Shown here: positions 3,130 through 54,318 of the stretch, one piece after another
How the letters are laid out: each line of letters opens with the position of its first letter
Numbering within the stretch: position 1 is the first letter of the stretch
DNA from: a virus
DNA: 64,000 nucleotides
Strand: one strand, 5' to 3'
IMG/VR virus record: IMGVR_UViG_3300045988_120893
Span: 1 to 64,000 of that record
The notes under the pieces: model-generated
Told to the model about the DNA's origin: nothing
The model's input: only the letters and a program-made list of their open reading frames with translations
The model's database searches: none
Translations under genes and position numbers: made by a program

Positions 3130-3151
3130 TAGTCTCACTCCTTTCCGTTTT

Positions 3152-3223
3152 GGAATTTCACCCCGCAAATTTTCAGCCGTCGGCGGTCGCTGTTGCCAGA
3201 CTATACCCCATGGCAACCTGGGG
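3152..3223 (-). promoter_or_regulatory. Conserved structured 5' leader, copy A (partner at 11822..11893)
   Basis: 72 nt. The first 56 nt are identical to the plus-strand copy and the next 16 have 3 substitutions. It is sense to the downstream Spo0A_C-like gene and contains competing helices CCCCA/UGGGG and GUUGCCA/UGGCAAC. Confidence 0.5.
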
Positions 3224-3229
3224 AAATTA

Positions 3230-3287
3230 GTTTCTGTGTTCTTCTGTGTTTCAAATATATAATAATACAGAATTTTGGAAACGTCAA
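3230..3287 (-). promoter_or_regulatory. Promoter P1 with tandem ACACAGAA box
   Basis: Minus strand: TTGACG (3287-3282), 17 nt, TATTAT (3264-3259), then GAAACACAGAAGAACACAGAAAC (3252-3230). Confidence 0.5.
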
Positions 3288-3333
3288 TATAAAAATGATA
3301 AAATTATACAAAAATATATAAAGAGGTTTTCAC

Positions 3334-4731
3334 ATGAAAAGAGTAGGGATATATTGCAGGGTATCTACAGACGGACAGAAAGAGAATACATCTATACCTG
3401 AGCAGAAGGACAGGTTGCTTGCGTTCTGCAAGGCTAAGGGGTGGGTTTGTGTCGATATGTTCATTGACCCTGGGTACAGCGGCGCTTCTCTGGAACGTCC
3501 AGCCATGGAAAGGATGATAAAATCAGTTGTGAATAAAAAGATTGATGTAGTATTAGTAACCAAACTAGACAGGCTTTCAAGATCACAGAAAGATACACTA
3601 TATCTTATAGAAGAATTGTTCCTTCCGAACAATGTAGACTTTGTGTCTGTAGCTGAGTCATTCGATACGACTTCAAGCTATGGCAGGGCCATGATTGGTA
3701 TATTGTCAGCGTTCGCACAGCTGGAGCGGGAATTGATTTCGGAGAGGACTTTCAGCGGACGTGTCGGAAGAGCAAAGGAAGGGAAATGGCATGGTGGCGG
3801 CACCCATCCGATCGGATACGACTATATTGACGGAGAGCTGGTTGTGAATGATTCAGAAGCAGACCAGGTAAGGAAGGTCTATGATCTGTATGCTTCCGGT
3901 GTTCCGATAACTTCGATCTGTGAGAGGATGGAAGGAGAAAAAACGAAACACGGTGACTGGCACCATCCGGAGACTGTTGCGAACGTATTAGACAACCCTC
4001 TGTATTCCGGAGCGATACATTTTGATGATGCAACGAATCCTGGTATTCATACCGCCATCATTCCGAAAGACCTATGGGAAACTGTCAGGGACATAAGAAG
4101 CCGTATAGGAAGATATCCAATGAGGGAAAGCCGGTACATTCTTACCGGTCTTGTTTACTGCAATAACTGCGGTGCCAGATACTTTGTTAAAAAGAACCCG
4201 AACGGCAATAAGTTCTACTGCTGCCATTCAAGAGCAAAGGTAAATAAAAAAATGATAAAAGACCCATCATGCAAGAATAAGAACTGGAGCATACATGAGC
4301 TTGAAGAGAAGGTATATAAGGAGATTAAGAGACTTGCGAAAAATCCGAACTTAATCCGGAACATGAAAAAAGAGCTGCCAAGTGGCAACTCTTTTCATAA
4401 AGCCCATGAGGAGATAGACGGTATCAATATAGAAATTGGTCGTCTTATGGACTTGTACCAGCGAAACGACCAGATTATACAGGTCGGGGAAATTGCAGAA
4501 AGAATCGACGAATTATATCAGAGAAAAGTGGCACTTATGAAGGCATCTCCTGATGAGGGTGTGGTGCGAGGTTTTAGTAAGGAGCGTGCGGTCATGGTGG
4601 TCTCTGATCTTCAGGCGGCCATGCGTGAAAATAATAATATTGATTTCGTCAGGTATTCTTTGCTTCAACTGATTGACCGTATTGAGGTGGATGGGGAGAA
4701 TGTTCATTTCTTGTGGTCATTTGCTGATTGA
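3334..4731 (+). CDS. Large serine recombinase (integrase/resolvase family)
   Basis: N-terminal resolvase catalytic domain (IYCRVSTDGQ, VTKLDRLSRS), recombinase domain (GGGTHPIGYDY), Cys-rich zinc ribbon (CNNCGARY...CCH) and a C-terminal coiled coil. 465 aa. Confidence 0.95.
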   Translation: MKRVGIYCRVSTDGQKENTSIPEQKDRLLAFCKAKGWVCVDMFIDPGYSGASLERPAMERMIKSVVNKKIDVVLVTKLDRLSRSQKDTLYLIEELFLPNNVDFVSVAESFDTTSSYGRAMIGILSAFAQLERELISERTFSGRVGRAKEGKWHGGGTHPIGYDYIDGELVVNDSEADQVRKVYDLYASGVPITSICERMEGEKTKHGDWHHPETVANVLDNPLYSGAIHFDDATNPGIHTAIIPKDLWETVRDIRSRIGRYPMRESRYILTGLVYCNNCGARYFVKKNPNGNKFYCCHSRAKVNKKMIKDPSCKNKNWSIHELEEKVYKEIKRLAKNPNLIRNMKKELPSGNSFHKAHEEIDGINIEIGRLMDLYQRNDQIIQVGEIAERIDELYQRKVALMKASPDEGVVRGFSKERAVMVVSDLQAAMRENNNIDFVRYSLLQLIDRIEVDGENVHFLWSFAD

Positions 4732-4875: not shown

Positions 4876-5224
4876 CCCTTTTGATTTCCTCATGTTTTTT
4901 TACAACGAAATCCCTGAAAGCCTGGTTCGCATAACGCTTTTTATCTCCGTATTCCAGGCATAATGCGTTAAATGCTTCATAAAGGTCTTTTTCAATGTAT
5001 ATGGTATCCTTTACATAGTTTTCCTTAAATCCTCCGTCTTTTGGAAGAGGATCATATTCTTCTTTCCGCTTTTTCAGTTCTTCCGCAATCTCTTTCAATT
5101 TGCTGTCTTCTGATTCTCCGTCAACAATGCTTTTCACGACATCCGGACGTGATTTGTTCGTTTCCTTCTTCTGCTTCCCTATTTCAGCTAATCTCTTCTT
5201 AATCAGATCATTCGACACGCTCAA
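4856..5224 (-). CDS. Ribbon-helix-helix protein, candidate centromere-binding partner of ParA (ParG-like)
   Basis: 122 aa, overlaps the parA stop. The C-terminal TIYIEKDLYEAFNALCLEYGDKKRYANQAFRDFVVKK fits a beta-strand/helix/helix RHH pattern. The N-terminal half is charged. Confidence 0.5.
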   Translation of the reverse strand: MSVSNDLIKKRLAEIGKQKKETNKSRPDVVKSIVDGESEDSKLKEIAEELKKRKEEYDPLPKDGGFKENYVKDTIYIEKDLYEAFNALCLEYGDKKRYANQAFRDFVVKKHEEIKREEKGGK

Positions 5225-7906: not shown

Positions 7907-10006
7907 TTACTTGTGAGGTTTTGTTTCGTTGTTTTCATTTGAGGTTTTTTCGAGGACTTCTTTTATTCCCTCTATGACATAAAGGAAGCATGGTAGGGCA
8001 ATTCCGTTCCCCCAGAGCTTATAAGCTGCGCCATCGGAATACGGATTTTGCAGCCATTTTATGATCTGTTTGTCCGTCTTTGGTTTCTTTGCTCCTGTTA
8101 CTATCTTTCTATGTGTTTCAAAAACTTCTCGCCAAAAGGCTATATCATGACCTGTCGGTTCTTCTGTTTCCAGACCATCAAGCCACCAGTCCGGGAAGCC
8201 TTGCAATCTTGCACATTCAATCGGTGTCAGCCGTCTTACTATGTAGGATGGTTCAACAATCAGATCAGTAGCATCTTTGTAATCTCTGCTTTTTAGGCAG
8301 CTTGCTTTTCCTGATTCATCATATTTACCGAACGCTTTCATTTCAAATCCACATTGCTGTGCTACCGGATTGATATAATTCAATGATTGACCGCCGTTTG
8401 ACTTTGCTTGTAATGTACCGCTCTTTTCTTCTATTGGAACATTATTTCTGCAATCGTAGGCTACTGCGTGTTGCTCTGTCGCATTCAGCGTGTACATAGT
8501 TTCTGATTCCTTATATCCATCTCCACGGTGTGATGGTCGAGAGCCGTTACCTTCCACAACGCATATACCGCCTTGATTGCAAGCAGGATTACCACCATTG
8601 AGGTCTAATGTTCTTGCCGTGTCAGCTTCGTATATTCCGCTATGTGGATTATCGGATTTCATTGAATTTGAGCCATAAGAGCATATTCCATAAACTTTCT
8701 TTTGTGGCTCAAATAGCGTCTGTGGAACACCACAGCTCAATGTTGCTGATTTGTTTATCTGAAGCAATGCACCTTTACCGCCGCCCTCACATCCACTGCG
8801 TATCTGCATAGTGACTGGTGGATTGTCATTTTGAGGTTCAAATATACATTGTGTTCCTTTGTAATCTGTCCCAGTTAGAGTATTTGCAATCTCTTTTCCT
8901 ACTGTGCAAGCATATTGTCTTTCATTCATACAATATGTTTCTTTCGGCAGACAATACAACCCTGTCTTTGCTCCTGATCCACCGCCTAATCCTTGTAATG
9001 TTACCGACTTTGTTGCGTTCATCTGTATTCTGTCAGCAACTCTTCCAAAATCAACGGCATATTGTTCTTCTTTCGCCACGCAAAACTGGTTATCGCCCAT
9101 GTTCGCTCTTAATGATCCAGTTTGGTTATCGTATGTATGTCCACCGGTTCGTGTTGCTGCCCCAGGTTCAAAACCTATGCAATGTTCGCTTGATGCATCA
9201 GTGCCTTTCGCAATATCTCCGGAAGTTGCTTGCCACGATTTTCGGCTCTCCGTAAAATTCCTTGACAAGCCTTTGCGCTTAAATAGTATTTCTCCGGCAC
9301 ATTGTCCTGCAAAATCTGCGACAAGAGCGATTCGTCTACGTCTTTGGGGGACTCCCCAAAATTGAGCATCGAGAACTCTCCAGGCAATGGACCACCCATC
9401 ACCCACGATGCATCCCTCTGTATTCCATTTTCCTTTCGGAGGTCTAGGAATAGTGGCGGTCTTGTCAACGACTTTCGCTGTTTCTTCAAGTACGGCTCGA
9501 AAATCTTCTCCTTTGTTGCTGCTGAATGCTCCTGTGACGTTCTCCCAGAGCATGAATCTAGGTCGAATATGCTCATCTGTCCTTCCACTTCGTAATCTTG
9601 CCAATTCATCAGCTTGTCTCATCTCCTTTACTATTCTGATCTGCTCCATGAATAAACCGGAGCGTGTGTATTGCATTTCAGAACCACACTCCGGGCAAGT
9701 GTCCGTATCTTCATTGGCTACCGATTTGTAACCACATTTTGGACACTCTTTGCTCATTCCTTTTCGTTTTCCTGCAACGGACATATCTTGACATGGGCTT
9801 CCGCCTGTTATGAGGTCTACCGGCTCAAGGTCAGAGCCGGATATTGAGGATATATCTCCGTAATGTTTCATGTGGGGAAATCGTTTCGTGGTAACTCTTA
9901 TTGGAAACGGTTCGATTTCAGAAGCCCATATCGGCTCCATTCCGCAAAGTGTGGCGGCTAATTCAAAGCCACCTGATCCTGAAAATAAACTTCCTATTCG
10001 AAACAA
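7907..10006 (-). CDS. DNA (cytosine-5)-methyltransferase with very long, modular target-recognition region
   Basis: Motif I FSGSGGFELA, IV GGSPCQDMS, VI LWENVTGA, VIII QRRRRIALVADF, IX RRLTPIECARLQGFP, X GNGIALP. About 360 aa lie between VIII and IX, with repeated (S/T)L-type modules. Confidence 0.95.
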   Translation of the reverse strand: MFRIGSLFSGSGGFELAATLCGMEPIWASEIEPFPIRVTTKRFPHMKHYGDISSISGSDLEPVDLITGGSPCQDMSVAGKRKGMSKECPKCGYKSVANEDTDTCPECGSEMQYTRSGLFMEQIRIVKEMRQADELARLRSGRTDEHIRPRFMLWENVTGAFSSNKGEDFRAVLEETAKVVDKTATIPRPPKGKWNTEGCIVGDGWSIAWRVLDAQFWGVPQRRRRIALVADFAGQCAGEILFKRKGLSRNFTESRKSWQATSGDIAKGTDASSEHCIGFEPGAATRTGGHTYDNQTGSLRANMGDNQFCVAKEEQYAVDFGRVADRIQMNATKSVTLQGLGGGSGAKTGLYCLPKETYCMNERQYACTVGKEIANTLTGTDYKGTQCIFEPQNDNPPVTMQIRSGCEGGGKGALLQINKSATLSCGVPQTLFEPQKKVYGICSYGSNSMKSDNPHSGIYEADTARTLDLNGGNPACNQGGICVVEGNGSRPSHRGDGYKESETMYTLNATEQHAVAYDCRNNVPIEEKSGTLQAKSNGGQSLNYINPVAQQCGFEMKAFGKYDESGKASCLKSRDYKDATDLIVEPSYIVRRLTPIECARLQGFPDWWLDGLETEEPTGHDIAFWREVFETHRKIVTGAKKPKTDKQIIKWLQNPYSDGAAYKLWGNGIALPCFLYVIEGIKEVLEKTSNENNETKPHK

Positions 10007-28424: not shown

Positions 28425-31400
28425 TCATGTTGCCAGAGGAATATTTTGGAATGCTTCTGAGAGAGCTTCCGCAATCGCATTGCTGATTCTGTCTGTGTTG
28501 CTTTCAACGTCTGCTGCCACTCCGTTTCCTCCGCCGATGATCTCGATTGTGATACCTCCTACATTGACCTCAATCTTTCCTCCGGTTCTTCTCTGTGGTT
28601 CGTCAGAAATGGATACAGAATTGTAACTGTTGTTTGCTGTGTTCATCATCTGACGCAACTTAGAACTTCCTCCGACGATACCTCCATTGGCAAATGCCGG
28701 GATTCCCATTGCATCTGCCGCCTGTTTCAGAAGATATTTACCCCTGTTCCTTCTTTTTGCTCCAAGCGGTATAACCATCTCAGGGCCATCCTCTCCGATC
28801 AGTGATAAGGTCGCACCGTTTACATATCCGCCATTCGCAAATTGACGTTTGCTTCCTCCACTGATATCTATACTTCCAATAGAGTTACTGATTTTATCTT
28901 TGATATTCGATACAATATCTCCAATGCCGCTAACACTACTAAGTCCCATAGAGACATTGACAGAACCGGTTACATTAAGTCCTGTTACGGCATCCTTCGT
29001 TTTTGATTTAGATTCCGATTTAGGATTGCTTGTGTCCGTGCTGTTCTCTTTCATGGTAATGTCGGCAGAACCGTTAATGGAAAGTCCAGTTACTGAGTCT
29101 TTTGTCTTTGATTTTGCTTTGGATTTCGTGTCGCTGGTATCCGTGCTTTTCTCTTTCATGGTAACGTTAGCAGACCCGGTTACTTTCTGGCCTTTTACAG
29201 CCTTTTTTGTTTTGCTTTTAGACTTTTCTTCAACGTCTGTTGTATCTACTTTTTTCGCTTTTACGGTAACGTTTCCTTTTTTGTCAATTTTAAGAACTCC
29301 TGCTTTTTCAAGTGATTTGACAGCTTTCTTTGTTTGCTTGTCAAGATTTTTTGTGTTGATGCCGCCTTTTTTTGTGATGGTTACTTTTCCTTTTTTATTG
29401 ATCTTGATAAGACCCTGCTTTTCAAGGTTCTTTGCCGCTTTCTTAGCCGACTTATCTAACTTCGTGGTATCAACTTTTTTCGGTTTGATTGTTATTTTTC
29501 CGTTCTTGTCAATCTTGATGACACCGCTCTTTTCAAGCTCCCTTACGGCTTTTTTGGTGTCCTTGTCCAGCCCGGATGTATCAATCTTTCCATTTTTTGT
29601 TTTGATTTTGACTTTTCCATCTTTTGTGATTGTGATTTTTCCTTTTTCTTTCAATGTCTTAATAACATCTGTTGTCTTCTTGTCCATGTCGGAGAAGTCA
29701 ATATTCTTTTTTGATGCTTTCACTTTAAGGTTTGTGTCTACATCTATAGTTGCGTTTTTTAGTCCTTTTTCCCTGGTGCTCTTGACTTCTTCAAGCCCTT
29801 CCTCGATACCTTTTTTCAGAGCAGCAGGAAGCAGCTTCCCTTTTTTATTTAACAGCTTTTCTGCGTGTGAGCTGTCAGTCTTAGCCATTTCCTTACCGAT
29901 CATCTCATAGTACGAATTTTTGTCGCCTGACATGATTTTTATATTCTGGATGTCACTTAACGAGTCCTCAATCCACTGTGGAACCTTTTCTCCCGCATCC
30001 TGGCAAGATTTTTTCAGTGACTTTAAATCCTGTTCCTGTGGTTTCAGGGAATCATAGAATCCCTTCATTTGTTTCTGCACTTCTTTTGTGACACCAGCAT
30101 CTTCAAGGAACTTCGCATGTGATTCATCCAATGCTTTCTGCGAATCATCCGTCCATTTGATCGACTGCCTGTTACGGTACATGAACTTCGTGCTGCTGTT
30201 CATTCCAACGGCTTCTCTTTTTAAGTTGCTGTCGTCACTGATATAGTTTTCAAGACCTTCTATTTCAGTTCCGTAATTATCTTTCAGGATGTCTAAGGAA
30301 ACAGTTACACTTGATTTTATGGTTGCAGCCTTCCCGCTTCTCCATTTATCTTCAATTTCTTTCAGCTTTTTCTTGTAATTTGCTTCGCTGATTTCGCCCT
30401 CTTCAAACTCAACGTCAATCTCTCCCCTTGCTTTGACATATGCATCGTCATACGCTTGCAGATTTGTTTCATTTTGGCTGTTCAGTTCATCTATAAGGGA
30501 AGAGTATGATTCGGCAGTGAGGTCCTTGAACTGGTATTTCTGCTTGATTAGGTCGTAAGAAGCGTCTGCTTCAGCTTTTGAAACCTTTTCAATTCTTTCC
30601 TGAACCTTGTCCTGGATGGCTTCTATCTGTCCGACAATTTCATCAATCTTCTTTTGTTCATCAAGGTCGATCTTTCCATCGTCAAATGCATCCGCTATAA
30701 CCTTGTTGAGTTTTTTCGTCTTTTTGGCAAGGTCTTTTTCAAGTCCGGAGTACGTTTTTTCCATATTCTTCGTCATTTTCGCCATGCCCTTTGTGTCATC
30801 TCCGTATAGAAGCTGGAAAGCGGATCTTGTGCTTTTCTTGTTGGTTACAAGAAGCTCCTTTGTTGCTGATGCGTAATCTTTCAGTGCTGTTTTGTACTCA
30901 CTTATGTCTGATTTCGACAGCTTTCCACCGCCTTTTATCATTGCTGAGGAATAATCAATCGTGTACTTGTTGTCTTGAAGTGTCTGCTGTATCGTGTCAA
31001 GTTCATCAAGGCTGTTATTGAATTTTTCAACATTGTTAATTACATCTTTCCCTATGATTTTCTTAACACTTCGTGATAATTCGTCTGCTGACAACGACCA
31101 CTTTCCGAAACGTTTGTTCATGTCTTTCCTTGCGAGTTCGTCAAGCTCTTCATTTAATTCCGCATATGATTTTTTACATCCAGAAATGGAGTCCGCAACC
31201 TTATTTCCTCCAAATATCGCACCTAACCCACCGATACCGGCTCCTATCAGTGCTCCAGGAACTGCGCCGGCTCCGCCGAAAAATGCACCTATGGCGGCTC
31301 CTGCGGCGGCTCCTGCTGCTGCACCACCACCTACCATCGCCACTTTCGTTCCAGCTCTGTATTTGTTCCTTTTCTTGTCCCATTCGTTGTCTGCGGTCTT

Positions 31401-33239
31401 TGATGCAATGTAATCATTGCCTGCACTTATCAATCCTGCCGCACCGGCAATACCTCCAGCTGTCGCTCCAAGTCCGATAGCGGATAATGCCCCGGCACCC
31501 ATGGAAGCACCACCAGCAAGGTTTCCAACTCCCATTCTGATTGCCTGATTCGCACCGAAACCGAGTAACCCTGTACCTGCAGATGCGGAACCGATAACGC
31601 CCCTAAGTCCTATTCCGTTAAGTATTCCGCCGCCTGTCAGTACACTTCCTGTTGCTCCTCCTGTTCCGTTCCAAAGTCCTCTAAGACCGGAAATAGCAGA
31701 TAAAATTCCTGATGTAAGTTTCAATGCCAGCCCTGTTTTGATGATGTTCCCAAGGACTCCTCCCCTTCCGTTGAATAGGGATTTGAAACCTTCAATGAAT
31801 ACATCTTTGATGGTTTTCATTATTTTTTTTCCGTCAAAGCCTTCAGCGAATCCTTTTCCAAAGTTGCTTCCAACGTCAGATGCTTCCTTGAACACTTCCA
31901 TCCCTGTTGTGTCCACTCCAAGAAGTGATAAGATGCCTTTTCCAAGTGCCAATGTTGCATTTGTCAGGCCTTCTCCAAGAAGTTTTCCGAAACTCTTGAA
32001 TTTTCCTTCTATGTATGGTTTTCCGGATGAATCCCACCATCTGCCGAACGGTTTTGATATCAATTCATCCCAGGCAATTTTCATTTTTCCGAATAACGAA
32101 GCATTTTTAAATTCTTTCGTTTCCGTCAGCTTCATCAATTTATCTATGGTACTCTCCAGCTTTCCTGCTGCCCAGTTGGAGAGGGTTTTTCCAATTTCTT
32201 TTAATGTGTCACCGAATTTTGAAAGTCTTTCTTCATTTGCGTCCAAGAATTTAACGATAGATCCGAAACCTTTCTTCGCCCCATCCTGCAATCCTTGTCC
32301 CCATTTTCTTAAAACGTTGATTTCAAATGTATCCTCAATCTGTGATTTAAGTCCTTCTACCGTTTCATTGGCAGTCTTGTTCATCATACCTTCGTATTCT
32401 TTCATACCTTCCATGAGTGCTTTAATTGCCGCTTCTGAGCCGATAGCACCTTTTTGAAGGTCGTCAGAAAGTTTCTTGATACCTGCATCACCAGAACCAT
32501 AGCCTAGACCTTCTGCTAGATATCTCTTTGCTGATATTCCAGCTTCTGCCAGCTGATTCAATTCTTCTGTCGATAATTTACCTTTTGACTTGATCTGTGC
32601 CAATGCCAGTACAATACGGTTAAGGCCTTCATCACCTTTTCCAGTTGCTGCTGCGGCATCACCGATTGTAGTCATGTCTTTTACAATGTTTTTTGCATCC
32701 CAACCCATAGCAATCATCTTCTGTGCCTGTGAGATGGTATTGGATGTTTTGAACGGAGTTTCTTTTGCGAATTTGTCCAAATCATCCATCATCTTCTGCC
32801 CCTTCTTATCCCCAAGAAGAGTGGAGAAACCAATCTTAGCGGAGGAATACTGGTCGGCCAGATTGATAGGTTCCATGATTCCTTTTTTGAAAGCCAAAGC
32901 ACCGCCGACTGCTACAGCAAGTGTTTTAATTGAGAACAGCATGTTTTTGATTGCTCTTAACGGTCTGGTCGCATAGTCTACGATCCTAACACCGGCTCTC
33001 CATGTCCTTCCTGCGAAACTACGTAATCCTGACGTGACGCTTCTCAGTGTAGAAGATGCATGGTCTACAAGGCTTAACGTTGGATGTGCTGTAGAACCGC
33101 TAAGGCTTTGTATCTGCTGTCTTAATCGTGCTATTTCCTGCAGTGCCCTATCAAGGTCTGCTTGCATGGCACTCATTCCAGGGCCTGTGTTGTTCTGGAA
33201 CTGAGCGACAATATCAATGACGATTGATTCATCTGCCAT
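28425..33239 (-). CDS. Tape measure protein (1604 aa)
   Basis: Size, position after the chaperone genes, Gly/Ala-rich TM-like segment (GGAAAGAAAGAAIGAFFGGAG...) and internal tandem repeats. Confidence 0.95.
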   Translation of the reverse strand: MADESIVIDIVAQFQNNTGPGMSAMQADLDRALQEIARLRQQIQSLSGSTAHPTLSLVDHASSTLRSVTSGLRSFAGRTWRAGVRIVDYATRPLRAIKNMLFSIKTLAVAVGGALAFKKGIMEPINLADQYSSAKIGFSTLLGDKKGQKMMDDLDKFAKETPFKTSNTISQAQKMIAMGWDAKNIVKDMTTIGDAAAATGKGDEGLNRIVLALAQIKSKGKLSTEELNQLAEAGISAKRYLAEGLGYGSGDAGIKKLSDDLQKGAIGSEAAIKALMEGMKEYEGMMNKTANETVEGLKSQIEDTFEINVLRKWGQGLQDGAKKGFGSIVKFLDANEERLSKFGDTLKEIGKTLSNWAAGKLESTIDKLMKLTETKEFKNASLFGKMKIAWDELISKPFGRWWDSSGKPYIEGKFKSFGKLLGEGLTNATLALGKGILSLLGVDTTGMEVFKEASDVGSNFGKGFAEGFDGKKIMKTIKDVFIEGFKSLFNGRGGVLGNIIKTGLALKLTSGILSAISGLRGLWNGTGGATGSVLTGGGILNGIGLRGVIGSASAGTGLLGFGANQAIRMGVGNLAGGASMGAGALSAIGLGATAGGIAGAAGLISAGNDYIASKTADNEWDKKRNKYRAGTKVAMVGGGAAAGAAAGAAIGAFFGGAGAVPGALIGAGIGGLGAIFGGNKVADSISGCKKSYAELNEELDELARKDMNKRFGKWSLSADELSRSVKKIIGKDVINNVEKFNNSLDELDTIQQTLQDNKYTIDYSSAMIKGGGKLSKSDISEYKTALKDYASATKELLVTNKKSTRSAFQLLYGDDTKGMAKMTKNMEKTYSGLEKDLAKKTKKLNKVIADAFDDGKIDLDEQKKIDEIVGQIEAIQDKVQERIEKVSKAEADASYDLIKQKYQFKDLTAESYSSLIDELNSQNETNLQAYDDAYVKARGEIDVEFEEGEISEANYKKKLKEIEDKWRSGKAATIKSSVTVSLDILKDNYGTEIEGLENYISDDSNLKREAVGMNSSTKFMYRNRQSIKWTDDSQKALDESHAKFLEDAGVTKEVQKQMKGFYDSLKPQEQDLKSLKKSCQDAGEKVPQWIEDSLSDIQNIKIMSGDKNSYYEMIGKEMAKTDSSHAEKLLNKKGKLLPAALKKGIEEGLEEVKSTREKGLKNATIDVDTNLKVKASKKNIDFSDMDKKTTDVIKTLKEKGKITITKDGKVKIKTKNGKIDTSGLDKDTKKAVRELEKSGVIKIDKNGKITIKPKKVDTTKLDKSAKKAAKNLEKQGLIKINKKGKVTITKKGGINTKNLDKQTKKAVKSLEKAGVLKIDKKGNVTVKAKKVDTTDVEEKSKSKTKKAVKGQKVTGSANVTMKEKSTDTSDTKSKAKSKTKDSVTGLSINGSADITMKENSTDTSNPKSESKSKTKDAVTGLNVTGSVNVSMGLSSVSGIGDIVSNIKDKISNSIGSIDISGGSKRQFANGGYVNGATLSLIGEDGPEMVIPLGAKRRNRGKYLLKQAADAMGIPAFANGGIVGGSSKLRQMMNTANNSYNSVSISDEPQRRTGGKIEVNVGGITIEIIGGGNGVAADVESNTDRISNAIAEALSEAFQNIPLAT
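29240..29690. repeat. Tandem ~111-bp (about 37-aa) repeats inside the tape measure gene
   Basis: About five units of the form DK.TKKAV..LEK.G.IKI.K.GK.T.K.KKVDT. Boundaries are approximate. Confidence 0.6.
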
Positions 33240-48843: not shown

Positions 48844-50271
48844 TCAGAGCCTGCCTAAACTCTTCTTTGCTTCCTCAGCTTCCTTTTCGTCTGCCAGTTC
48901 GTCAGGGTCTTTCTCTTTATTCTCTTCCTTCGTCTGCTCCCTTTTATGCTCTTCTGACGGCTGTACCTTCACGCCATCAGACTGTCCCTGTGTTTCCCCT
49001 TTCCGTTCTTCTGTCGGTACACTGGTTTTCCGCTCCGGAAGGTTCCCAATCTGGCGAACATAGTCTTCCATTTCATCATCCGGTGTAAGCAGACCGCTCC
49101 CTGCCATCTGCTGTAAGAAGGCTCCAATCTTTTCTAAGTTCGCATCCTCAATATCCCCATGACGCATCTCCGGGTAGTCCGTTATGCCTTTGAAATGGTC
49201 TCCGTTAATGTCAATCAGCCTTGGGATTGCCTGATTGTTAAATACTTCACATATGACATCAAGATAGGTTCCTACTGCGAGTGCGAACATCTTCGTCTTG
49301 TTATCCACCAGGGCAAAGGAACCGACATTCTCATGCCCGATCTGCAAGAAGTCAGCAAGAACGCTCATGGCGATCTTCGTGTCATATCGGTTGATGATGG
49401 CATTTGTGTCAAACTGTCTCCTGCTTCCGCTGGATAATAGCTGCAGTTCCCATCCATCAGGAAGAACTAACCCCTCTCTGCTGTCCCTTCTTACACCGGT
49501 AATGATGGCTTCTGCATTCGCAAGGGCCTGTTTCATATCGTCATCATCTTTGTCCCATATGTCCATGCCTTCCGGCGCTTTCAGTACCGGGAAACCTGCA
49601 AGGTCTCTTTCGATCCCGATACCCTCGATTTCCTGTATTCTCTTCTTGAAATACCAGTCCTTGTATGCGGTTCTTAGGATGGACCTTCCTTCCGGATTGT
49701 TCTTTCTGCTCCTGGTAACGAAATGTAGTGCCTTGTCTTTAGGTATGAATAACATTCCATAATCCGGCGGCGGCATCTGCACCATCCCTTCCAGGTCATC
49801 CGTACCCTCTTTGTACCTCCATTCATACAATGTTTCCTGTGAACGTATAGGAAGACGTTTCCACCCGATAAGACCATCATCATATTTTGATGACAGGTCT
49901 TCGTCTTTTGTCTTTCCCATTCTCCGTTTGTATACAATCTCATGGTAGCTCCATCCGTAAGTGATGAATGAAAGGATCTCTGACAGTGTGTCTGTCCATG
50001 TGCTTGTCATGTCATACATGCACTGTTCCACGAACTCAGCGGCTTCCTTGTCCTTCGCACTGTTCCCTGCCGGGTCAATGGTAAACTCACACTGCCGCAT
50101 GAGATTTTCAACAGCAAAAAGAATCCCTCCGATGGTGGAATCGTTGTCTGCCATTTCCTTGTAGACTTCCACACCACGTATTCCCCTAAGCTCCGGAAGA
50201 AATTCTTCGTACATGATACCGTTAAGGCTTCGTCGGGAACCGATTCTACCTATTTCTCCTTTTTTTATCAC
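48844..50271 (-). CDS. Portal protein (Mu gp29/DUF935-like)
   Basis: 475 aa, between terL and the MuF gene, with an acidic C-terminus. Confidence 0.8.
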   Translation of the reverse strand: MIKKGEIGRIGSRRSLNGIMYEEFLPELRGIRGVEVYKEMADNDSTIGGILFAVENLMRQCEFTIDPAGNSAKDKEAAEFVEQCMYDMTSTWTDTLSEILSFITYGWSYHEIVYKRRMGKTKDEDLSSKYDDGLIGWKRLPIRSQETLYEWRYKEGTDDLEGMVQMPPPDYGMLFIPKDKALHFVTRSRKNNPEGRSILRTAYKDWYFKKRIQEIEGIGIERDLAGFPVLKAPEGMDIWDKDDDDMKQALANAEAIITGVRRDSREGLVLPDGWELQLLSSGSRRQFDTNAIINRYDTKIAMSVLADFLQIGHENVGSFALVDNKTKMFALAVGTYLDVICEVFNNQAIPRLIDINGDHFKGITDYPEMRHGDIEDANLEKIGAFLQQMAGSGLLTPDDEMEDYVRQIGNLPERKTSVPTEERKGETQGQSDGVKVQPSEEHKREQTKEENKEKDPDELADEKEAEEAKKSLGRL

Positions 50272-50276
50272 TGGTT

Positions 50277-51146
50277 TTACAACTCCTTTCTTAAACGTGA
50301 AGAAATATAATCTTCAATATCGCCTTGTTTTGTATGTCTACTGATTGTACTTCTTCCAACTCCTATCATTTTTGCCCAATCAGTAGCATTTTTAGTTACT
50401 CCATTTACAGTAATATGCATTGTGGTTCTTCTATTATTCGCTTGTTCCTTTGATGTGGTCCATCTGCAATTACTAGGTTCGTAATTACCATCATTATTTA
50501 TGCGGTCAATCGTTAGATCATCAGCATATCCATGAGCCATTGCCCAGTCATAGAATGCTTGAAAGTCATGTATCCATTCATCACAGACAGTTATTCCACG
50601 TCCACCATAATTAGCGTAGTGTTCATCTTTTGTGTTATAGCATCTTTTTTTCATGGTTGCCCAAATGTTATAAAGTCTAGTTTTATGCAATCCATGTTTA
50701 TAACTAGCACTATCTTTTCCATATGGATAATTTATTTTCTCACGATTTGATATTGTTCCTTGTAAACAACCACAACTTTTAGTTCTACCTTTCGTTATTA
50801 CCGAACTTCTTAAGCTAGTTGTTTTACCGCAATCACAAATACATTCCCAAATTGTTTCCCCTTTTTTACTTTTCCCACATGGCTTTATAACAGTCAGCAT
50901 ATTAAATTTTTTACCAGATATATCTTTTGTTCTATTTTTGCCATGTGATTTTTCTATTCTTGTACACCCACAACTTTTAGTAAGATTTCTCTTTAAACTA
51001 TTCGCAAATACTTCTGTATAATTGCCACAATCACACTTACAAAGCCATTTTGCGTGTCCATTTTTTGAAGATTCGCATTCAGACACAACAACAAGCCTAC
51101 CATACCTTTTACCTATCAAATTTTCTTTCTTCATAATATAACCCAT
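50277..51146 (-). CDS. Homing-endonuclease-like protein with triplicated zinc-ribbon modules and a degenerate HNH-like domain
   Basis: Three units of type GKRYGRLVVV...W.CKCDCG....V....L......SCGC, then YGGRGITVCDEW...IDRINNDGNYEPSNCRWTTSKEQANN. AT-rich. Confidence 0.65.
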   Translation of the reverse strand: MGYIMKKENLIGKRYGRLVVVSECESSKNGHAKWLCKCDCGNYTEVFANSLKRNLTKSCGCTRIEKSHGKNRTKDISGKKFNMLTVIKPCGKSKKGETIWECICDCGKTTSLRSSVITKGRTKSCGCLQGTISNREKINYPYGKDSASYKHGLHKTRLYNIWATMKKRCYNTKDEHYANYGGRGITVCDEWIHDFQAFYDWAMAHGYADDLTIDRINNDGNYEPSNCRWTTSKEQANNRRTTMHITVNGVTKNATDWAKMIGVGRSTISRHTKQGDIEDYISSRLRKEL

Positions 51147-51191
51147 TCCTTTCTAAATGGATTATATTACAATAATTTCCATTTCTCAAGT

Positions 51192-53747
51192 TTAATGATT
51201 CCAATATGATTTTTTCTTATTTCCTACTTCCGTTGGTGGAGCGGAATGTGTATTCATTTTTTCAAGCTCGTCATATCCGTTTGCACTGGCATCTGCCATA
51301 TCTTTAAACTTCCTGTCTGGAAACCCGTCCATTTGAGCTAAATATGCTTGCGTCCACGGTGCATTAAGAACATCTACATTTCCTTTTTCTGAACCCTTTA
51401 TTCCAATCCATTGAGCGGACAAAGGCTCTGCTCTTGTCTCTTTGCTGCCGCTCTCCCTTACCATACTTACACTAAATCCAGATAGCATTTTTATATATTG
51501 TTCACTTTGGTCTTTACCACTTTGCCCAGGATCTTGCGACATTCTTATTTTAATTTTTCTCCCAAATGAAGCTTTGTCTGCTTTTGCAGTATTAAGGACA
51601 GTCTGGCGCACATCACTTGAGTTCATTCTGCGATTAATTACATCACCAATAACAATTCTTCCGTTCTTGCGTTTACCGATAAGAACACCAGCTGTATAGG
51701 CTGGACCATCCTCAGGATTATTGTTCTTTTTGTCCTCAGTACCGGCCAAATCCCATGCACGTACCCATCGAATAACATCATCTGGCAATTCATCAATGAT
51801 TGTAGCCTTATTTCTAGGGAAGTACATACCGGCAGCAGGCCTAATCTTCCAGTTCCCGCCTAAAAGCCGTTCCTGCTCTACAAGAGGAAGTGATTTCAAG
51901 TTGGCAAGGTAAGACGGGTCATTCCTCATGAGTATAGCGTTGTCGGAGAGCATGGACAGTATGAATGTGGCACTCTTCGGCGTGATAAGGTCAACATATT
52001 CTGTTCCGTTCCATCTGTAAAACTGTTTTGTTTCTGTGCATACATACAGAACACCGCTTTCACCATGTTCATGTATATACAGATTTCCTGTCTCACTGTC
52101 CTTTATGAAAAGTTCGTCCGGGTGCCTGTGCTTCTTATTTACTTCTCTTATCTCGCCATCAAACTGACGCTTCAAGAGCTCCATCCGGTTATCTCCCCAG
52201 ATTACTTCTCCATTTATGCGGATAAACCATCGTATCTTCCCAGACCGCTCCGGTATCGCATAACCCGTGTCCTGGTTAATCCACCATGAGATAAATTCTG
52301 CAACCCAGCTGTCAGGGTCAGGGTTGGTTGTGGCTCTGATATATCCGGGTACACCGGAATCAGAACGGTTTCGGGAGAACATATACCAGAAAACATCCTC
52401 ATTGAAATGTGTCAGCTCGTCAAAACAATTTTTATTGACTAACCCACTTTCAGTGATATAATGATTAGTGGTAGAAACTGTTAAATCAATAACCCATCTT
52501 TTACCTAAAGGAGTGATTTTACATGAATGATATTCAATATCAACCCCTTCCGCAATCTGTTCTTCTCCCGTATACGGGTGGACATACCGTAATTTATGGT
52601 GGATATGTTTATGAACTTTGCCCTGACCATCCAAAAGCGAATCCTTTCGGTTTTGTACCACAACACCGTCTAGTATTAGAACGTCACCTTGGACGTTATC
52701 TCCTTTCAAGTGAACAGGTACATCACATTGATATGGACCCCCTGAACAATGACCTCTCAAACCTTCAAATTCTTTCACGTTCTGAACATCTTGCGATACA
52801 TCGTAAATTTGAACGTGAGCAGCGTTATCCTCCTTTAACTCATGATATTGTTTCTGATGCTCTTGCAGATGGTGGTCTAAAAGCCGCTGCAAAGGCTCTC
52901 GGTTGTTCGACTGAAACGATTCGCAATAACTTCCCTTATCTTGTTGCGCCTTACAAAAGGAAATCTCCTGCAAACCTTGATCTTGATAGTTGGGTTGACA
53001 AAATAAAACCTCTTGCTGCTGATAAAAATATTGGTTATCGTGAGGCTGTTGCTGTTCTTGGCATATCTGCAAGGAGCATTCAACGTGTTTGTGAACGTCA
53101 TAACATTGAGTGGGTGAAGAAATCAAAGGTTGGTGAGATTCATACAAAGTACACATATCGGAATAGGAAACCCAGCCACAAGAAGTAAGGATTTTATGCG
53201 TTGTTGAATGAATCTGCTTTTCTCCATATTCATTTTCAATTTCAACACAATCTTCTAATCTTCTATTACCTATTGCTGTAACAGGCATAGGTCCTTGTAA
53301 AGTTTCTACCATATCCCCTATCTGTATATCTGATAGGGGTTTTTTAGTGCCATCTGCCATCCGTATTAAAGTAGATTCTTCACAACATATTAGTGGAATC
53401 TGTGAGCCTTGCCAGCCCAAACAATCCTCGTACCGCTCCAAGTGTCCGAAAGATACCTTTGCACCGCTCGGAAAAACAAATTGAGGGTTCGGGGTCTTTT
53501 TCGGTGTGGCTTGAAACTGTGGAAGAAAACCCATGGCAGAATCCCAAAGTCCACCGTTGGTAAATATCTGCGTGTTATTCCTACGGAAGATAACAGAATT
53601 GAATCGGGGGTTTCCGCTATGCCGTAACTGTTCCATGAGCAGAGCATAAGTTTTCCCTCCACCGGCGGCTCCACCGAATATTACAATATCTGCGATTGAC
53701 GATAAGAATTGTTCTTGTCTCGGCTGTGGCTTGATTACAGTTGACAT
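51192..53747 (-). CDS. terL: Terminase large subunit, interrupted by a 320-aa intein
   Basis: Walker A FGGAAGGGKTYAL. Walker B CFDELTHF follows the insert. The C-terminal nuclease half has typical length. Exteins are 120 + 411 aa. Confidence 0.95.
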   Translation of the reverse strand: MSTVIKPQPRQEQFLSSIADIVIFGGAAGGGKTYALLMEQLRHSGNPRFNSVIFRRNNTQIFTNGGLWDSAMGFLPQFQATPKKTPNPQFVFPSGAKVSFGHLERYEDCLGWQGSQIPLICCEESTLIRMADGTKKPLSDIQIGDMVETLQGPMPVTAIGNRRLEDCVEIENEYGEKQIHSTTHKILTSCGWVSYSDMCTLYESHQPLISSPTQCYDVHKHVECSLQICQEQQQPHDNQYFYQQQEVLFCQPNYQDQGLQEISFCKAQQDKGSYCESFQSNNREPLQRLLDHHLQEHQKQYHELKEDNAAHVQIYDVSQDVQNVKEFEGLRGHCSGGPYQCDVPVHLKGDNVQGDVLILDGVVVQNRKDSLLDGQGKVHKHIHHKLRYVHPYTGEEQIAEGVDIEYHSCKITPLGKRWVIDLTVSTTNHYITESGLVNKNCFDELTHFNEDVFWYMFSRNRSDSGVPGYIRATTNPDPDSWVAEFISWWINQDTGYAIPERSGKIRWFIRINGEVIWGDNRMELLKRQFDGEIREVNKKHRHPDELFIKDSETGNLYIHEHGESGVLYVCTETKQFYRWNGTEYVDLITPKSATFILSMLSDNAILMRNDPSYLANLKSLPLVEQERLLGGNWKIRPAAGMYFPRNKATIIDELPDDVIRWVRAWDLAGTEDKKNNNPEDGPAYTAGVLIGKRKNGRIVIGDVINRRMNSSDVRQTVLNTAKADKASFGRKIKIRMSQDPGQSGKDQSEQYIKMLSGFSVSMVRESGSKETRAEPLSAQWIGIKGSEKGNVDVLNAPWTQAYLAQMDGFPDRKFKDMADASANGYDELEKMNTHSAPPTEVGNKKKSYWNH
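52435..52462 (+). promoter_or_regulatory. Near-consensus promoter for the antisense HNH gene
   Basis: TTGACT (52435-52440), 16 nt, TATAAT (52457-52462). Embedded in terL coding sequence. Confidence 0.55.
52523..53188 (+). CDS. HNH homing endonuclease encoded antisense inside the terL intein
   Basis: AAAGGAG SD 9 nt before the ATG. HNH motif QVHHIDMDPLNNDLSNLQILSRSEHLAIH. Two HTH-like segments (LKAAAKALGCSTETIRNNF, YREAVAVLGISARSIQRVCERH). Confidence 0.85.
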   Translation: MNDIQYQPLPQSVLLPYTGGHTVIYGGYVYELCPDHPKANPFGFVPQHRLVLERHLGRYLLSSEQVHHIDMDPLNNDLSNLQILSRSEHLAIHRKFEREQRYPPLTHDIVSDALADGGLKAAAKALGCSTETIRNNFPYLVAPYKRKSPANLDLDSWVDKIKPLAADKNIGYREAVAVLGISARSIQRVCERHNIEWVKKSKVGEIHTKYTYRNRKPSHKK

Positions 53748-53784
53748 GGCATCACCCCCTTTTACATCCTGTTTTTATCATGGT

Positions 53785-54318
53785 CTAAACTTCCAAATCG
53801 TCAAAATCATCTTCATCCTGCCTGTGGTTCTCCGGAAGATAAATCTGGACAGCGTTCATTGCCTGTCCGCCATCCCGGTTCTCAATAACCTCTCCGACAT
53901 CTCCACGGCTGATACGTTCCAGCTTGCTTGCAACATCAACCATCTTCGAAACGTCAGATGCCTTGATATCTTCCACCGGAATCTTATTCAATGCCTGTGC
54001 AGCCTTCACTATCATTGCGGATGCCACTGTTGCATGGTTCTTCCGCATTTTTTTTATGTCTTTGATCTGCTGCAATCTGTTCAGCCTGTCCACCTCTGCA
54101 TCCCAGGCTGTCACACGTTCTACCCAGTGGTTCTTTTTGCTCCAGATTCCAAGATTAGGCTTTGTCTTACCAAGAGCATCCGCTACCTTCTGGATGGATC
54201 TCTCTGCACCCATATCCCTGTATAAAGCAAATGCTTCCCATTGCTTAGGTGTTTCCCCCGGCTGCCGCTCCCATGGTTTCAAATCTTCTGGTGCTTCCTG
54301 TGTTTTTTTTCTTGCCAT
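53785..54318 (-). CDS. terS: Terminase small subunit
   Basis: Position directly upstream of terL. N-terminal ...PKQWEAFALYRDMGAERSIQKVADALGKT...IWSKKNHWVERVTAWD (HTH). Confidence 0.75.
   Translation of the reverse strand: MARKKTQEAPEDLKPWERQPGETPKQWEAFALYRDMGAERSIQKVADALGKTKPNLGIWSKKNHWVERVTAWDAEVDRLNRLQQIKDIKKMRKNHATVASAMIVKAAQALNKIPVEDIKASDVSKMVDVASKLERISRGDVGEVIENRDGGQAMNAVQIYLPENHRQDEDDFDDLEV

What the first reader, a model, noticed from the sequence alone, without database searches (positions are those of the whole stretch)
52428..53387. terL mini-intein whose homing endonuclease is a free-standing antisense gene embedded in the intein coding sequence
terL (51192..53747, minus) is one 851-codon ORF. 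A 320-codon insert sits between the strand preceding Walker B (...WQGSQIPLI) and Walker B itself (CFDELTHF).

The insert has Hint/intein blocks:
- A: CCEESTLIRMADG (Cys1 at 53385-53387)
- B: IHSTTHKILTSCGW
- F: WVIDLTVSTTNHYIT
- G: SGLVNKN, followed by the +1 Cys (52425-52427)

Inteins normally carry an in-frame endonuclease domain at this position. Here the central ~222 codons are the exact reverse complement of a 221-codon plus-strand ORF (52523..53188). That ORF has:
- a canonical HNH motif (QVHHIDMDPLNNDLSNLQILSRSEHLAIH)
- two HTH-like segments
- an AAAGGAG SD 9 nt before its ATG
- a near-consensus TTGACT-16 nt-TATAAT promoter (52435-52462)

All of these lie inside terL coding sequence. 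The terL-sense translation of that stretch is Q/H/C-rich and linker-like, yet it stays stop-free for 666 nt (roughly 2e-5 under a simple 3/64 stop model). Both ends of the HNH gene overlap functional Hint blocks: its last ~13 codons are antisense to block B, and its promoter and SD are antisense to blocks F-G.

I am not aware of a described intein with an antisense free-standing endonuclease gene. That statement is from memory and needs a literature check.
Basis: partly seen in the sequence, partly recalled or inferred. Interest (0 to 1): 0.8.

Follow-up and report, generated by a model that had tools for sequence, protein, structure and literature searches.

The report
Terminase intein with antisense HNH gene
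A phage DNA-packaging gene carries a self-splicing protein insert (intein) whose mobility nuclease is a separate gene on the opposite DNA strand of the same bases; this layout is kept in about 40 related environmental sequences, and it was already known for other nuclease types but not, as far as I could find, for HNH.

Summary
terL (51192..53747, minus) is one 851-codon ORF. A 320-codon insert sits exactly where intein-less homologues read ...QIPLI|CFDELTHF.

- **Intein:** the insert ends model as a Hint (intein splicing) fold and match only solved inteins. The central ~150 residues are predicted disordered.
- **Nuclease gene:** the plus-strand ORF 52523..53188 is an HNH_3 endonuclease with helix-turn-helix (HTH) repeats.
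- **Conservation:** 37 distinct loci have the terL frame stop-free across the insert, an intact antisense ORF (36 of 37 score as HNH_3) and the same relative codon phase. Three more loci, found through the HNH protein, are also open.
- **Stop avoidance:** synonymous-codon shuffles predict about 7 stops per gene (10.4 here). Free-standing HNH_3 genes show 6 per 100 codons.
- **Which frame is selected:** substitution patterns show protein-level selection on the HNH frame. The terL frame only avoids stops.
- **Expression signals:** the promoter-like site and ribosome-binding (Shine-Dalgarno, SD) site lie antisense to codons near the intein C-terminus. They are kept at synonymous sites.
- **Mobility:** nucleotide identity jumps sharply at the intein borders.

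Antisense endonuclease genes in inteins were reported in 1998, 2002 and 2025, including in terminases, but only LAGLIDADG and VSR-like types. An antisense HNH was not found in the literature searched. Verdict: new variant of a known kind. Splicing, transcription and cleavage are untested.

The parts
51192..53747 (-). terL precursor ORF, 851 codons: N-extein, intein, C-extein
   Evidence: Single ORF. Pfam Terminase_6N and Terminase_6C; PHROG 979 terminase large subunit at E=3e-138.
53388..53747 (-). N-extein (TerL residues 1-120; Walker A motif and the strand before Walker B, ending ...QIPLI)
   Evidence: Aligns without gaps to intein-less homologues.
52428..53387 (-). Intein, 320 codons, from Cys1 (53385-53387) to Asn320 (52428-52430)
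   Evidence: Absent from intein-less homologues at exactly these borders. Nucleotide identity to L001 jumps from 50-60% to 81-93% at these borders.
53142..53387 (-). Hint N-lobe (intein residues 1-82; Cys1 and block B S61-x-x-H64)
   Evidence: AlphaFold2 (AF2) pLDDT 86-95. Foldseek matches gp41-1, Prp8, DnaB and RecA inteins. 89% identical to P0004, whose exteins are about 60% identical.
52689..53141 (-). Stop-free linker in the terL frame (intein residues 83-233); antisense of the HNH gene core; Q/H/C-rich
   Evidence: pLDDT below 50. 34% identity to P0004 while the HNH frame is 85% identical to L001, which encodes P0004. Most variable at terL codon position 2. Composition: Q 17.9%, H 7.3%, C 5.3%.
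52602..52688 (-). Intein residues 234-262: status unclear. Moderately confident strand in the model, but its conservation may simply mirror the highly conserved HNH residues 27-52 on the other strand.
   Evidence: pLDDT 58-76. HNH codons here differ mainly at HNH position 3 (0.18/0.17/0.52).
52428..52601 (-). Hint C-lobe (intein residues 263-320: LRYVHPYT, TPLG, block F VIDLTVSTTNHYIT, block G GLVNKN)
   Evidence: pLDDT 85-92. 97% identical to P0004 over residues 290-320. The same motifs occur in the HNH-less mini-intein L091.
51192..52427 (-). C-extein, starting with the +1 Cys (52425-52427) and Walker B FDELTHF
   Evidence: The +1 codon is Cys in 28 of 37 loci, and Thr or Ser in the rest.
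52523..53188 (+). Antisense gene for a 221-aa HNH_3 endonuclease with C-terminal HTH repeats
   Evidence: Pfam HNH_3 E=2.3e-10. 36 of 37 family members hit HNH_3. The profile hits I-HmuI (PDB 1u3e) at E=1.4e-3. AF2 mean pLDDT 86.4. Codon-position pattern 3>1>2.
52435..52462 (+). Sigma-70-type promoter-like site TTGACT-16 nt-TATAAT with TG upstream; antisense to the L-V-N (block G) and H-Y-I (block F) codons
   Evidence: The same position scores at least 9 of 12 in most relatives, across GC 0.39-0.66. The Tyr codon is TAT in 32 of 36 loci against 40% in the exteins, binomial P about 1e-9.
52507..52513 (+). Shine-Dalgarno AAAGGAG, 9 nt before the HNH ATG; antisense to the Thr-Pro codons of TPLG
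   Evidence: In the 11 loci with T-P-x-G, Thr is ACT in 10, against 15% expected, P about 5e-8.
52568..52577 (.). Palindrome CCGTATACGG that encodes P-Y-T on both strands (intein HPYT, HNH PYTG)

Best explanation
This is a mobile intein in the terminase large-subunit gene. [quoted passage not shown]

**Shown by computation**
- The insert is a Hint-fold intein at the Walker B site.
- The antisense ORF is a conserved HNH_3-HTH protein under purifying selection.
- The terL frame across it is kept free of stops but is otherwise unconstrained.
- A promoter-like site and the SD for the HNH gene lie in codons near the intein C-terminus (blocks F/G and TPLG). They are kept at synonymous sites.
- The intein and HNH gene move together between divergent terL genes.

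**Inferred**
1. The terL mRNA is translated straight through into an 851-aa precursor.
2. The two Hint lobes (residues 1-82 and about 263-320) dock while the linker of roughly 150-180 residues loops out disordered.
3. Class 1 splicing (Cys1, block B His, terminal Asn320, +1 Cys) releases a 531-aa TerL with Walker B restored.
4. The HNH gene is transcribed from its own promoter on the plus strand.
5. Its product nicks or cuts intein-less terL alleles of co-infecting relatives near the Walker B coding site.
6. Recombinational repair copies the whole cassette into the cut allele.
For: - **Boundaries and fold:**. In 18 of 37 family TerLs, Pfam Hom_end_hint matches at E<=1e-3, best 6.5e-8.
- **Catalytic residues:** Cys1 in 37 of 37 loci; terminal Asn in 36 of 37; +1 Cys, Ser or Thr in 37 of 37.
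- **HNH gene:**
- **Both frames open:** 37 of 37 distinct loci, always in the same phase. Three further loci found through the HNH protein are also open.
- **Stop avoidance:** 2-15 stops expected per gene under synonymous shuffles, 0 observed. Free-standing HNH_3 genes have 6.0 stops per 100 codons in that phase, and none of 34 is open.
- **Selection on the HNH frame:** central-region differences at HNH codon positions 1/2/3 are 0.43/0.31/0.66. Linker identity is 34% where the HNH is 85%.
- **Expression signals:**
- **Mobility:** identity to L001 is 50-60% in the N-extein, 81-93% at the intein ends and 57-70% just after it. The closest extein relative, L152, has an empty site and no HNH homologue within 10 kb.
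- **No intron signature:**
Against: - No experiment supports splicing, plus-strand transcription or cleavage.
- The window's own Hint match is below Pfam's cutoff (16.9 bits against 32.1).
- The penultimate intein residue is Lys, not the usual His.
- The fold search with the HNH model gave only weak matches: Tc3 HTH at E=0.05, I-HmuI at E=0.16.
- The synonymous-site statistics treat loci as independent although they are related.
- The promoter consensus is the sigma-70 type, and the hosts are unknown.
Confidence: 0.85

Rival explanations
1. The insert is a self-splicing intron (group I or II) that carries an antisense endonuclease gene. Its open terL frame is incidental.
For: Antisense endonuclease genes are known in some group I introns (my own knowledge, not checked here). 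terL genes are frequent intron targets.
Against: Rfam finds nothing at E<=1 in 51000-54000. The terL frame is stop-free in 37 of 37 distinct loci, where 2-15 stops are expected. The insert ends fold as a Hint domain with Cys1, terminal Asn and +1 Cys.
Confidence: 0.02
2. The insert no longer splices. It is tolerated as a surface loop in TerL, like the ShiLan insertion with a hidden HNH in phage methylases.
For: PMC11855218 describes an in-frame, stop-free insertion with a hidden HNH and no splicing domain. The penultimate His is missing here.
Against: The Hint lobes are conserved more strongly than the exteins: 89-97% against about 60%. The catalytic Cys1, terminal Asn and +1 nucleophile are near-invariant. 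The insert splits the ATPase core directly before the Walker B Asp-Glu.
Confidence: 0.04
3. The HNH protein is not a homing enzyme. It is the HNH cofactor that many terminases need for cos cleavage and packaging.
For: HNH genes next to terminase genes are a widespread packaging component (abstract of PMC3592412).
Against: The protein is HNH_3 with HTH repeats, and its nearest solved relative by sequence is the homing nickase I-HmuI. It occurs only together with the intein. The closest intein-less phage, L152, has no homologue within 10 kb of terL. It travels with the intein between divergent terL genes.
Confidence: 0.06
4. The antisense ORF is a decaying relic, or not expressed, and the element is now inherited only vertically.
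For: L121 has lost the HNH catalytic core. No expression data exist.
Against: 36 of 37 ORFs still score as HNH_3, with conserved catalytic His and Asn residues. The codon-position pattern shows purifying selection. The promoter-like site and the SD are kept at synonymous sites. Identity breaks sharply at the intein borders.
Confidence: 0.03

Closest known systems
Non-canonical inteins with an antisense homing endonuclease: Synechocystis dnaX and Chloroflexus SpoVR-like inteins (Gorbalenya 1998; Gogarten 2002), and actinobacteriophage inteins with antisense LAGLIDADG or VSR-like enzymes (Gosselin, Arsenault and Gogarten, bioRxiv 10.1101/2025.01.02.630785)
   Same: The splicing domain is contiguous and in frame. 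The endonuclease is encoded on the other strand between the splicing blocks. The in-frame translation of that stretch has no recognisable structure. Terminase large subunit is among the host proteins. There is evidence of continued transfer.
   Different: The endonuclease here is HNH_3 with HTH repeats. That survey reports HNH only in frame. The family here comes from uncultured phages with GC 0.39-0.66, not from actinophages. A term search of the preprint found no mention of a promoter or Shine-Dalgarno site, and no stop-avoidance test among its stop-codon passages.
Cyanobacterial dnaX intein with an out-of-frame LAGLIDADG gene (bioRxiv 10.64898/2026.09.14.751524)
   Same: The overlapping frame is under purifying selection while the intein frame is relaxed. 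The intein linker is predicted disordered. An SD is proposed for the second ORF.
   Different: That paper describes the endonuclease ORF as a +2 frame and never uses the term antisense, whereas the Gosselin preprint lists the dnaX case among antisense LAGLIDADG inteins. The enzyme is LAGLIDADG, and the host is a cellular replication gene.
Fractured genes: split inteins with a free-standing endonuclease gene between the halves (Dassa et al. 2009, PMC2677866)
   Same: A free-standing endonuclease gene sits between the N and C parts of an intein. Relatives of this Hint type show exactly that layout: L093, L095, L097 and L107.
   Different: Here the host gene is not broken. One polypeptide runs through the antisense of the endonuclease gene.
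ShiLan insertion: hidden out-of-frame HNH in phage DNA methylases (PMC11855218)
   Same: An HNH of a similar type is hidden in a stop-free in-frame insertion, and gene callers miss it. Mycobacteriophage methylase genes (Mantra, Totinger) appear among tblastn hits of a family member's HNH.
   Different: ShiLan has no splicing domain, and its HNH is on the same strand.
I-HmuI, the intron-encoded HNH homing nickase of Bacillus phage SPO1 (PDB 1u3e)
   Same: HNH core followed by helical DNA-binding modules. It is the best solved relative by sequence profile, E=1.4e-3, and ranks second in the fold search.
   Different: I-HmuI is encoded in a group I intron on the sense strand (my own knowledge, not checked here). 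The structural match is weak, E=0.16.

Membership tests
Intein (Hint domain, class 1 splicing) | In-frame insertion at a conserved site, absent from close homologues | tested here: met
   Five intein-less TerLs have no residues across exactly residues 121-440. The empty site in L152 reads ...CCATTACTA|TGCTTTGACGAG.
Intein (Hint domain, class 1 splicing) | Cys or Ser at position 1; C-terminal Asn followed by Cys, Ser or Thr | tested here: met
   Cys1 in 37 of 37 loci. Terminal Asn in 36 of 37 (L143 has Gln). The +1 residue is Cys, Thr or Ser in all 37.
Intein (Hint domain, class 1 splicing) | Block B T-x-x-H | tested here: met
   S61-T-T-H64. H64 is invariant and S61 nearly so across the family.
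Intein (Hint domain, class 1 splicing) | Penultimate His in block G | tested here: not met
   The residue is Lys here, and Lys, Arg, Gln, Ser, Thr, Ala or Cys in relatives. To my knowledge this residue is not obligatory in all inteins; that is not checked here.
Intein (Hint domain, class 1 splicing) | Hint fold | tested here: met
   In the AF2 model, residues 1-82 and 263-320 have pLDDT 85-95. The top 12 Foldseek PDB hits (E<=1e-3) are inteins or the related BIL domain. TM-score on the target is 0.70-0.74 to the RecA mini-intein.
Intein (Hint domain, class 1 splicing) | Pfam Hint-type model above its curated cutoff | tested here: inconclusive
   The window scores 16.9 bits on Hom_end_hint against a cutoff of 32.1. 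18 of 37 family members match at E<=1e-3, best 6.5e-8.
Intein (Hint domain, class 1 splicing) | Protein splicing activity | not testable with these tools
   Requires expression and mass spectrometry or a Western blot.
HNH_3 homing endonuclease | HNH_3 profile above the curated cutoff, with conserved catalytic His and Asn | tested here: met
   40.4 bits against a cutoff of 24.8. 36 of 37 members hit. H48 is invariant; H67, H68, N76, N80, H89 and H93 are nearly invariant.
HNH_3 homing endonuclease | Sequence-specific DNA-binding modules | tested here: inconclusive
   HTH matches in the window's protein are below Pfam's cutoffs. 19 of 37 members hit HTH_23 at E<=1e-3. The AF2 model has two helical modules, and its best fold match is the Tc3 bipartite HTH at E=0.05.
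HNH_3 homing endonuclease | Cleaves the empty allele; evidence of mobility | tested here: inconclusive
   Cleavage is not testable here. Mobility is supported by the sharp identity break at the intein borders and by patchy presence among close terL genes.
Non-canonical intein with antisense endonuclease | Endonuclease ORF on the opposite strand between the splicing blocks, with a contiguous stop-free intein frame | tested here: met
Non-canonical intein with antisense endonuclease | Endonuclease of the LAGLIDADG or VSR-like type, as in all described cases | tested here: not met
   The enzyme is HNH_3. The described cases are LAGLIDADG or VSR-like.
Group I or II intron with endonuclease gene | Ribozyme core detectable | tested here: not met
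   No Rfam match at E<=1.
Fractured gene / split intein | Host gene broken into two ORFs | tested here: not met
   The ORF is single in the window and in 36 relatives.

The most novel reading that the evidence does not exclude
Antisense-HNH inteins are an old, widespread and so far unannotated class of terminase inteins in which the two selfish functions are physically interlocked. The -35 and -10 hexamers and the ribosome-binding site of the endonuclease gene are spelled by the codons of splicing blocks F/G and of the TPxG motif. The endonuclease gene in turn must choose codons, and avoid Phe before Ile, Met, Thr, Asn or Lys, so that the intein frame stays open. Neither part can change freely without the other. 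Gene callers hide one of the two genes every time.
Probability: 0.6. Interest if true: 0.65.

Novelty: new variant of a known kind. Interest (0 to 1): 0.55.

Why it matters
- **Natural dual-coding test case.** Selection keeps about 660 bases readable on both strands. One strand is kept for protein function. The other is kept only so that a ribosome can pass and two intein halves can meet.
- **Origin of inteins.** It supports the view that inteins gain mobility when free-standing endonuclease genes invade mini-inteins. The same Hint type occurs here as a mini-intein, as a split intein with a same-strand nuclease gene, and as a contiguous intein with an antisense nuclease gene.
- **Missing annotation.** A whole family of nuclease genes is missed by standard annotation.
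- **Practical use.** The family offers natural inteins that splice despite a long disordered insert.

Tried and rejected
- **Cultured-phage records (INPHARED collection).**
  - Megablast of terL found nothing.
  - tblastn with the window's intein and with a high-GC family member's intein found nothing.
  - The HNH hits there are free-standing or methylase-embedded genes, not intein-embedded ones.
- **Species-representative genomes.** The scan gave one unrelated HNH.
- **Rfam.** No hit.
- **Fold search with the HNH model.** Only weak matches.
- **Gorbalenya 1998.** The paper is not held, so it is cited only through later papers.
- **First shuffle script.** It timed out and was rewritten.
- **Other long antisense ORFs in the window.** Those in the tape-measure, endolysin, portal and RecU genes have no Pfam match and were dropped as chance.
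- **Rejected readings.**
  - An intron.
  - A tolerated non-splicing loop.
  - A packaging HNH cofactor.
  - A decayed endonuclease gene.
  - The reasons are given under the rival explanations.
- **Not run.** The representative-library search was skipped. Gene callers rarely call the HNH ORF, so counts from a protein library would mislead.
Full report
**1. Observation**

terL (51192..53747, minus) is one 851-aa ORF. A 221-aa ORF (52523..53188, plus) lies wholly inside it. The whole protein matches terminase large-subunit families: Pfam Terminase_6N and Terminase_6C, and PHROG 979 at E=3e-138. The plus ORF matches Pfam HNH_3 at E=2.3e-10, above the curated cutoff, and several PHROG HNH families.

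The SD is AAAGGAG at 52507-52513, 9 nt before the ATG. The promoter-like site TTGACT-16 nt-TATAAT is at 52435-52462, scores 11 of 12 and has TG upstream.

**2. The insert is an intein**

A protein search returned many TerLs of about 525-532 aa and a smaller set of 770-850 aa. In the alignment, five short homologues (63-79% identical) have no residues across exactly residues 121-440, between ...QIPLI and CFDELTHF. Twelve long homologues, with extein identity down to 44%, carry an insert at the same point. These share CCEE..., HS.THK.LT, HPYTG.EQIAE and NHYIT..G.VNKN|C.

- **Model.** An AlphaFold2 model of the 320 residues has pLDDT 86-95 for residues 1-82 and 85-92 for residues 263-320. Residues 83-233 are below 50.
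- **Fold search.** Foldseek against the PDB returns inteins and related Hint-superfamily domains (BIL, Hedgehog, Vint) throughout the top 50: gp41-1, Prp8, DnaB, and the RecA mini-intein at TM-score 0.70-0.74 on the target.
- **Pfam.** The window's own Hint match is sub-threshold. Across the wider family, 18 of 37 TerLs match Hom_end_hint at E<=1e-3.
- **No RNA family.** Rfam finds nothing.

**3. The layout is conserved**

I pooled loci from look-ups of three homologues and from pattern scans of viral, genome and metagenome collections. The scans used the HNH alignment and the intein alignment as queries. They do not select for open frames.

tblastn with the window's Hint N part, Hint C part and HNH found 37 distinct sequences with Hint-N(+), HNH(-), Hint-C(+). 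In all 37:
- the intein frame has no stop over 252-398 codons;
- the antisense ORF is intact, at 177-304 aa;
- the two frames stand in the same phase, with intein codon position 1 on HNH position 1 and intein position 2 on HNH position 3.

Thirty-six of the 37 antisense ORFs hit HNH_3. The host genes are TerLs of several families, with GC from 0.39 to 0.66. Nearly all insertions lie just before the Walker B Asp-Glu; L066 and L072 differ.

A search with the HNH protein then found about 59 called full-length homologues, mostly singletons on short contigs. I opened four on long contigs. Three again have a continuous terL frame through the insert. The fourth, L156, is a prophage remnant in which terL is truncated and the sense frame is closed.

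**4. Both frames are selected, but differently**

- **Shuffle test.** Shuffling synonymous codons within each HNH ORF keeps its protein and codon usage. It predicts 2-15 stops in the intein phase (mean 7.1; 10.4 for the window). None is observed. None of 3000 shuffles of the window's gene is open.
- **Other phases.** The other two antisense phases carry 2-23 stops.
- **Control.** Thirty-four free-standing HNH_3 genes have 6.0 stops per 100 codons in the same phase, and none is open.
- **How stops arise.** In this phase a stop needs an HNH codon ending in TT, CT or TC followed by a codon starting with A. Synonymous choice avoids this except after Phe. The 37 proteins accordingly contain no Phe followed by Ile, Met, Thr, Asn or Lys among 168 Phe residues.
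- **Substitution pattern.** In the central region, differences fall at HNH codon positions 1/2/3 as 0.43/0.31/0.66. That is the pattern of a gene selected in the HNH frame, and the reverse of what selection on the terL-frame protein would give.
- **Identity to P0004 and its locus L001.** HNH 85%, Hint lobes 89-97%, exteins about 60%, linker 34%.
- **Structure.** The same DNA gives a model with mean pLDDT 86 in the HNH frame and below 50 in the terL frame.
- **True double coding.** Where the HNH 5' end overlaps the Hint C-lobe (HNH codons 1-26), all three positions are similarly constrained, at 0.33/0.31/0.44. A palindrome, CCGTATACGG, spells P-Y-T on both strands there.

**5. Expression signals inside the splicing blocks**

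The -10 hexamer is the antisense of the His-Tyr-Ile codons of block F. The -35 hexamer is the antisense of the Leu-Val-Asn codons of block G. A site of at least 9 of 12 matches sits at this position in most relatives, including high-GC ones. Two of them score 12 of 12.

The Tyr codon supplies the A at -10 position 2. It is TAT in 32 of 36 loci, against 40% TAT in the same genes' exteins. In loci with GC of at least 0.55 it is TAT in 18 of 21, against 26%.

The GGAG of the SD is the antisense of Thr-Pro in TPxG. Thr is ACT in 10 of 11 such loci, against 15% expected. These binomial values (about 1e-9 and 5e-8) ignore relatedness and are upper bounds on significance.

**6. Mobility**

Nucleotide identity between the window and L001 is 50-60% across the N-extein. 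It rises to 81-88% at intein codon 1, reaches 93% at the intein's end, and falls to 70% and then 57% in the C-extein. The closest extein relative, L152 (87% and 81% identity over the N- and C-extein query segments), has an empty site and no HNH homologue within 10 kb. More distant terL genes (L153, L154, L001) carry an HNH that is 83-87% identical. The cassette therefore moves as a unit.

**7. Mechanism**

Shown by computation: the Hint fold, the HNH gene, stop avoidance, the signals kept at synonymous sites, and joint transfer.

Inferred:
1. Read-through translation gives an 851-aa precursor.
2. The two Hint lobes dock, with the linker looped out.
3. Class 1 splicing restores Walker B.
4. The HNH gene is transcribed separately from its own promoter.
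5. The HNH protein cuts or nicks empty terL alleles, and recombinational repair copies the cassette in.

**8. What is known**

[quoted passage not shown] Terminase large subunit is among the host proteins. The preprint cites Gorbalenya 1998 and Gogarten 2002 for antisense LAGLIDADG cases in Synechocystis dnaX and a Chloroflexus protein.

- A 2026 preprint analyses the dnaX case.
- Hidden same-strand HNH genes occur in phage methylases.
- Split inteins with a free-standing endonuclease between the halves are the 'fractured genes' of Dassa et al. 2009.
- In the 2025 survey, HNH appears only in frame.
- Seven searches of the held library found no antisense HNH in an intein.
- A term search of that preprint found no mention of a promoter or Shine-Dalgarno site, and no stop-avoidance test among its stop-codon passages.

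**9. Verdict**

It is a new variant of a known but rare kind: an antisense endonuclease of a new family (HNH_3-HTH), in a broad and so far unannotated family of terminase inteins from uncultured phages. Its expression signals are written into the splicing-block codons. No cultured-phage record in the collection searched holds it.

Interest is moderate to good for specialists in inteins, homing endonucleases and overlapping genes. It is not a new category.

Noticed in passing
window 50277..51146 (-): A second, free-standing HNH endonuclease gene (289 aa; PHROG 374, E=6e-97) lies between terL and the Mu-type portal gene (48844..50271). The packaging module therefore carries two nuclease genes of different families.
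   Followed up: partly
L093, L095, L097, L107 (about 3001-4146); L101 and L105 (3001-3420); L109: A related Hint type occurs in three forms. One is a split intein: the N part ends in a stop, a same-strand +1-frame ORF of about 233 aa with HNH-like motifs follows, and then Met plus the C part. The second is a contiguous 140-aa mini-intein (L101, L105). The third is a remnant with three stops (L109). This is the fractured-gene layout of Dassa et al. 2009.
   Followed up: partly
L091 2984-3436: A 151-aa mini-intein of the window's own Hint type (AHPYT, NHFIT..FINKN) without any HNH gene. It is either the ancestral state or a deletion product.
   Followed up: no
L155 about 5040-5090 (minus strand); L153 about 9915-9985: The P-loop (Walker A) coding region of terL in two relatives holds short inserts that contain stops. 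L155 has a 42-nt in-frame insert with TAA and a GC-rich hairpin between GGAAGGG and KT. L153 has a 6-nt and an 8-nt insert, each with TAG. The gene calls P0001 and P0003 start only at Met38. Possible causes are assembly error, a tiny mobile insert or translational bypass. Unexplained.
   Followed up: partly
L156 2695-4265: A prophage remnant next to integrase and ABC-transporter genes. The terL N part and the Hint N lobe are gone, and the terL frame is closed inside the HNH region. The 254-aa HNH ORF is still intact.
   Followed up: partly
L121 1645-2400: A family member whose HNH catalytic core is deleted (intein only 252 aa), yet both frames remain open.
   Followed up: no
L001-L003 and L154-L157 gene calls: Gene callers never report both genes. 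They call either the whole terL, or the HNH plus a truncated terL. Only about 59 full-length HNH homologues are in the 5.8-billion-protein collection, mostly singletons on contigs under 2 kb.
   Followed up: yes
window 28849..29910 (+) and 31738..32457 (+), inside the tape-measure gene 28425..33239 (-): Long antisense ORFs (353 and 239 aa) with no Pfam match. They are probably chance products of biased composition, unlike the HNH case.
   Followed up: partly
window 52568-52577: The palindrome CCGTATACGG encodes Pro-Tyr-Thr on both strands. Both the intein motif HPYT and the HNH motif PYTG are conserved in relatives.
   Followed up: partly
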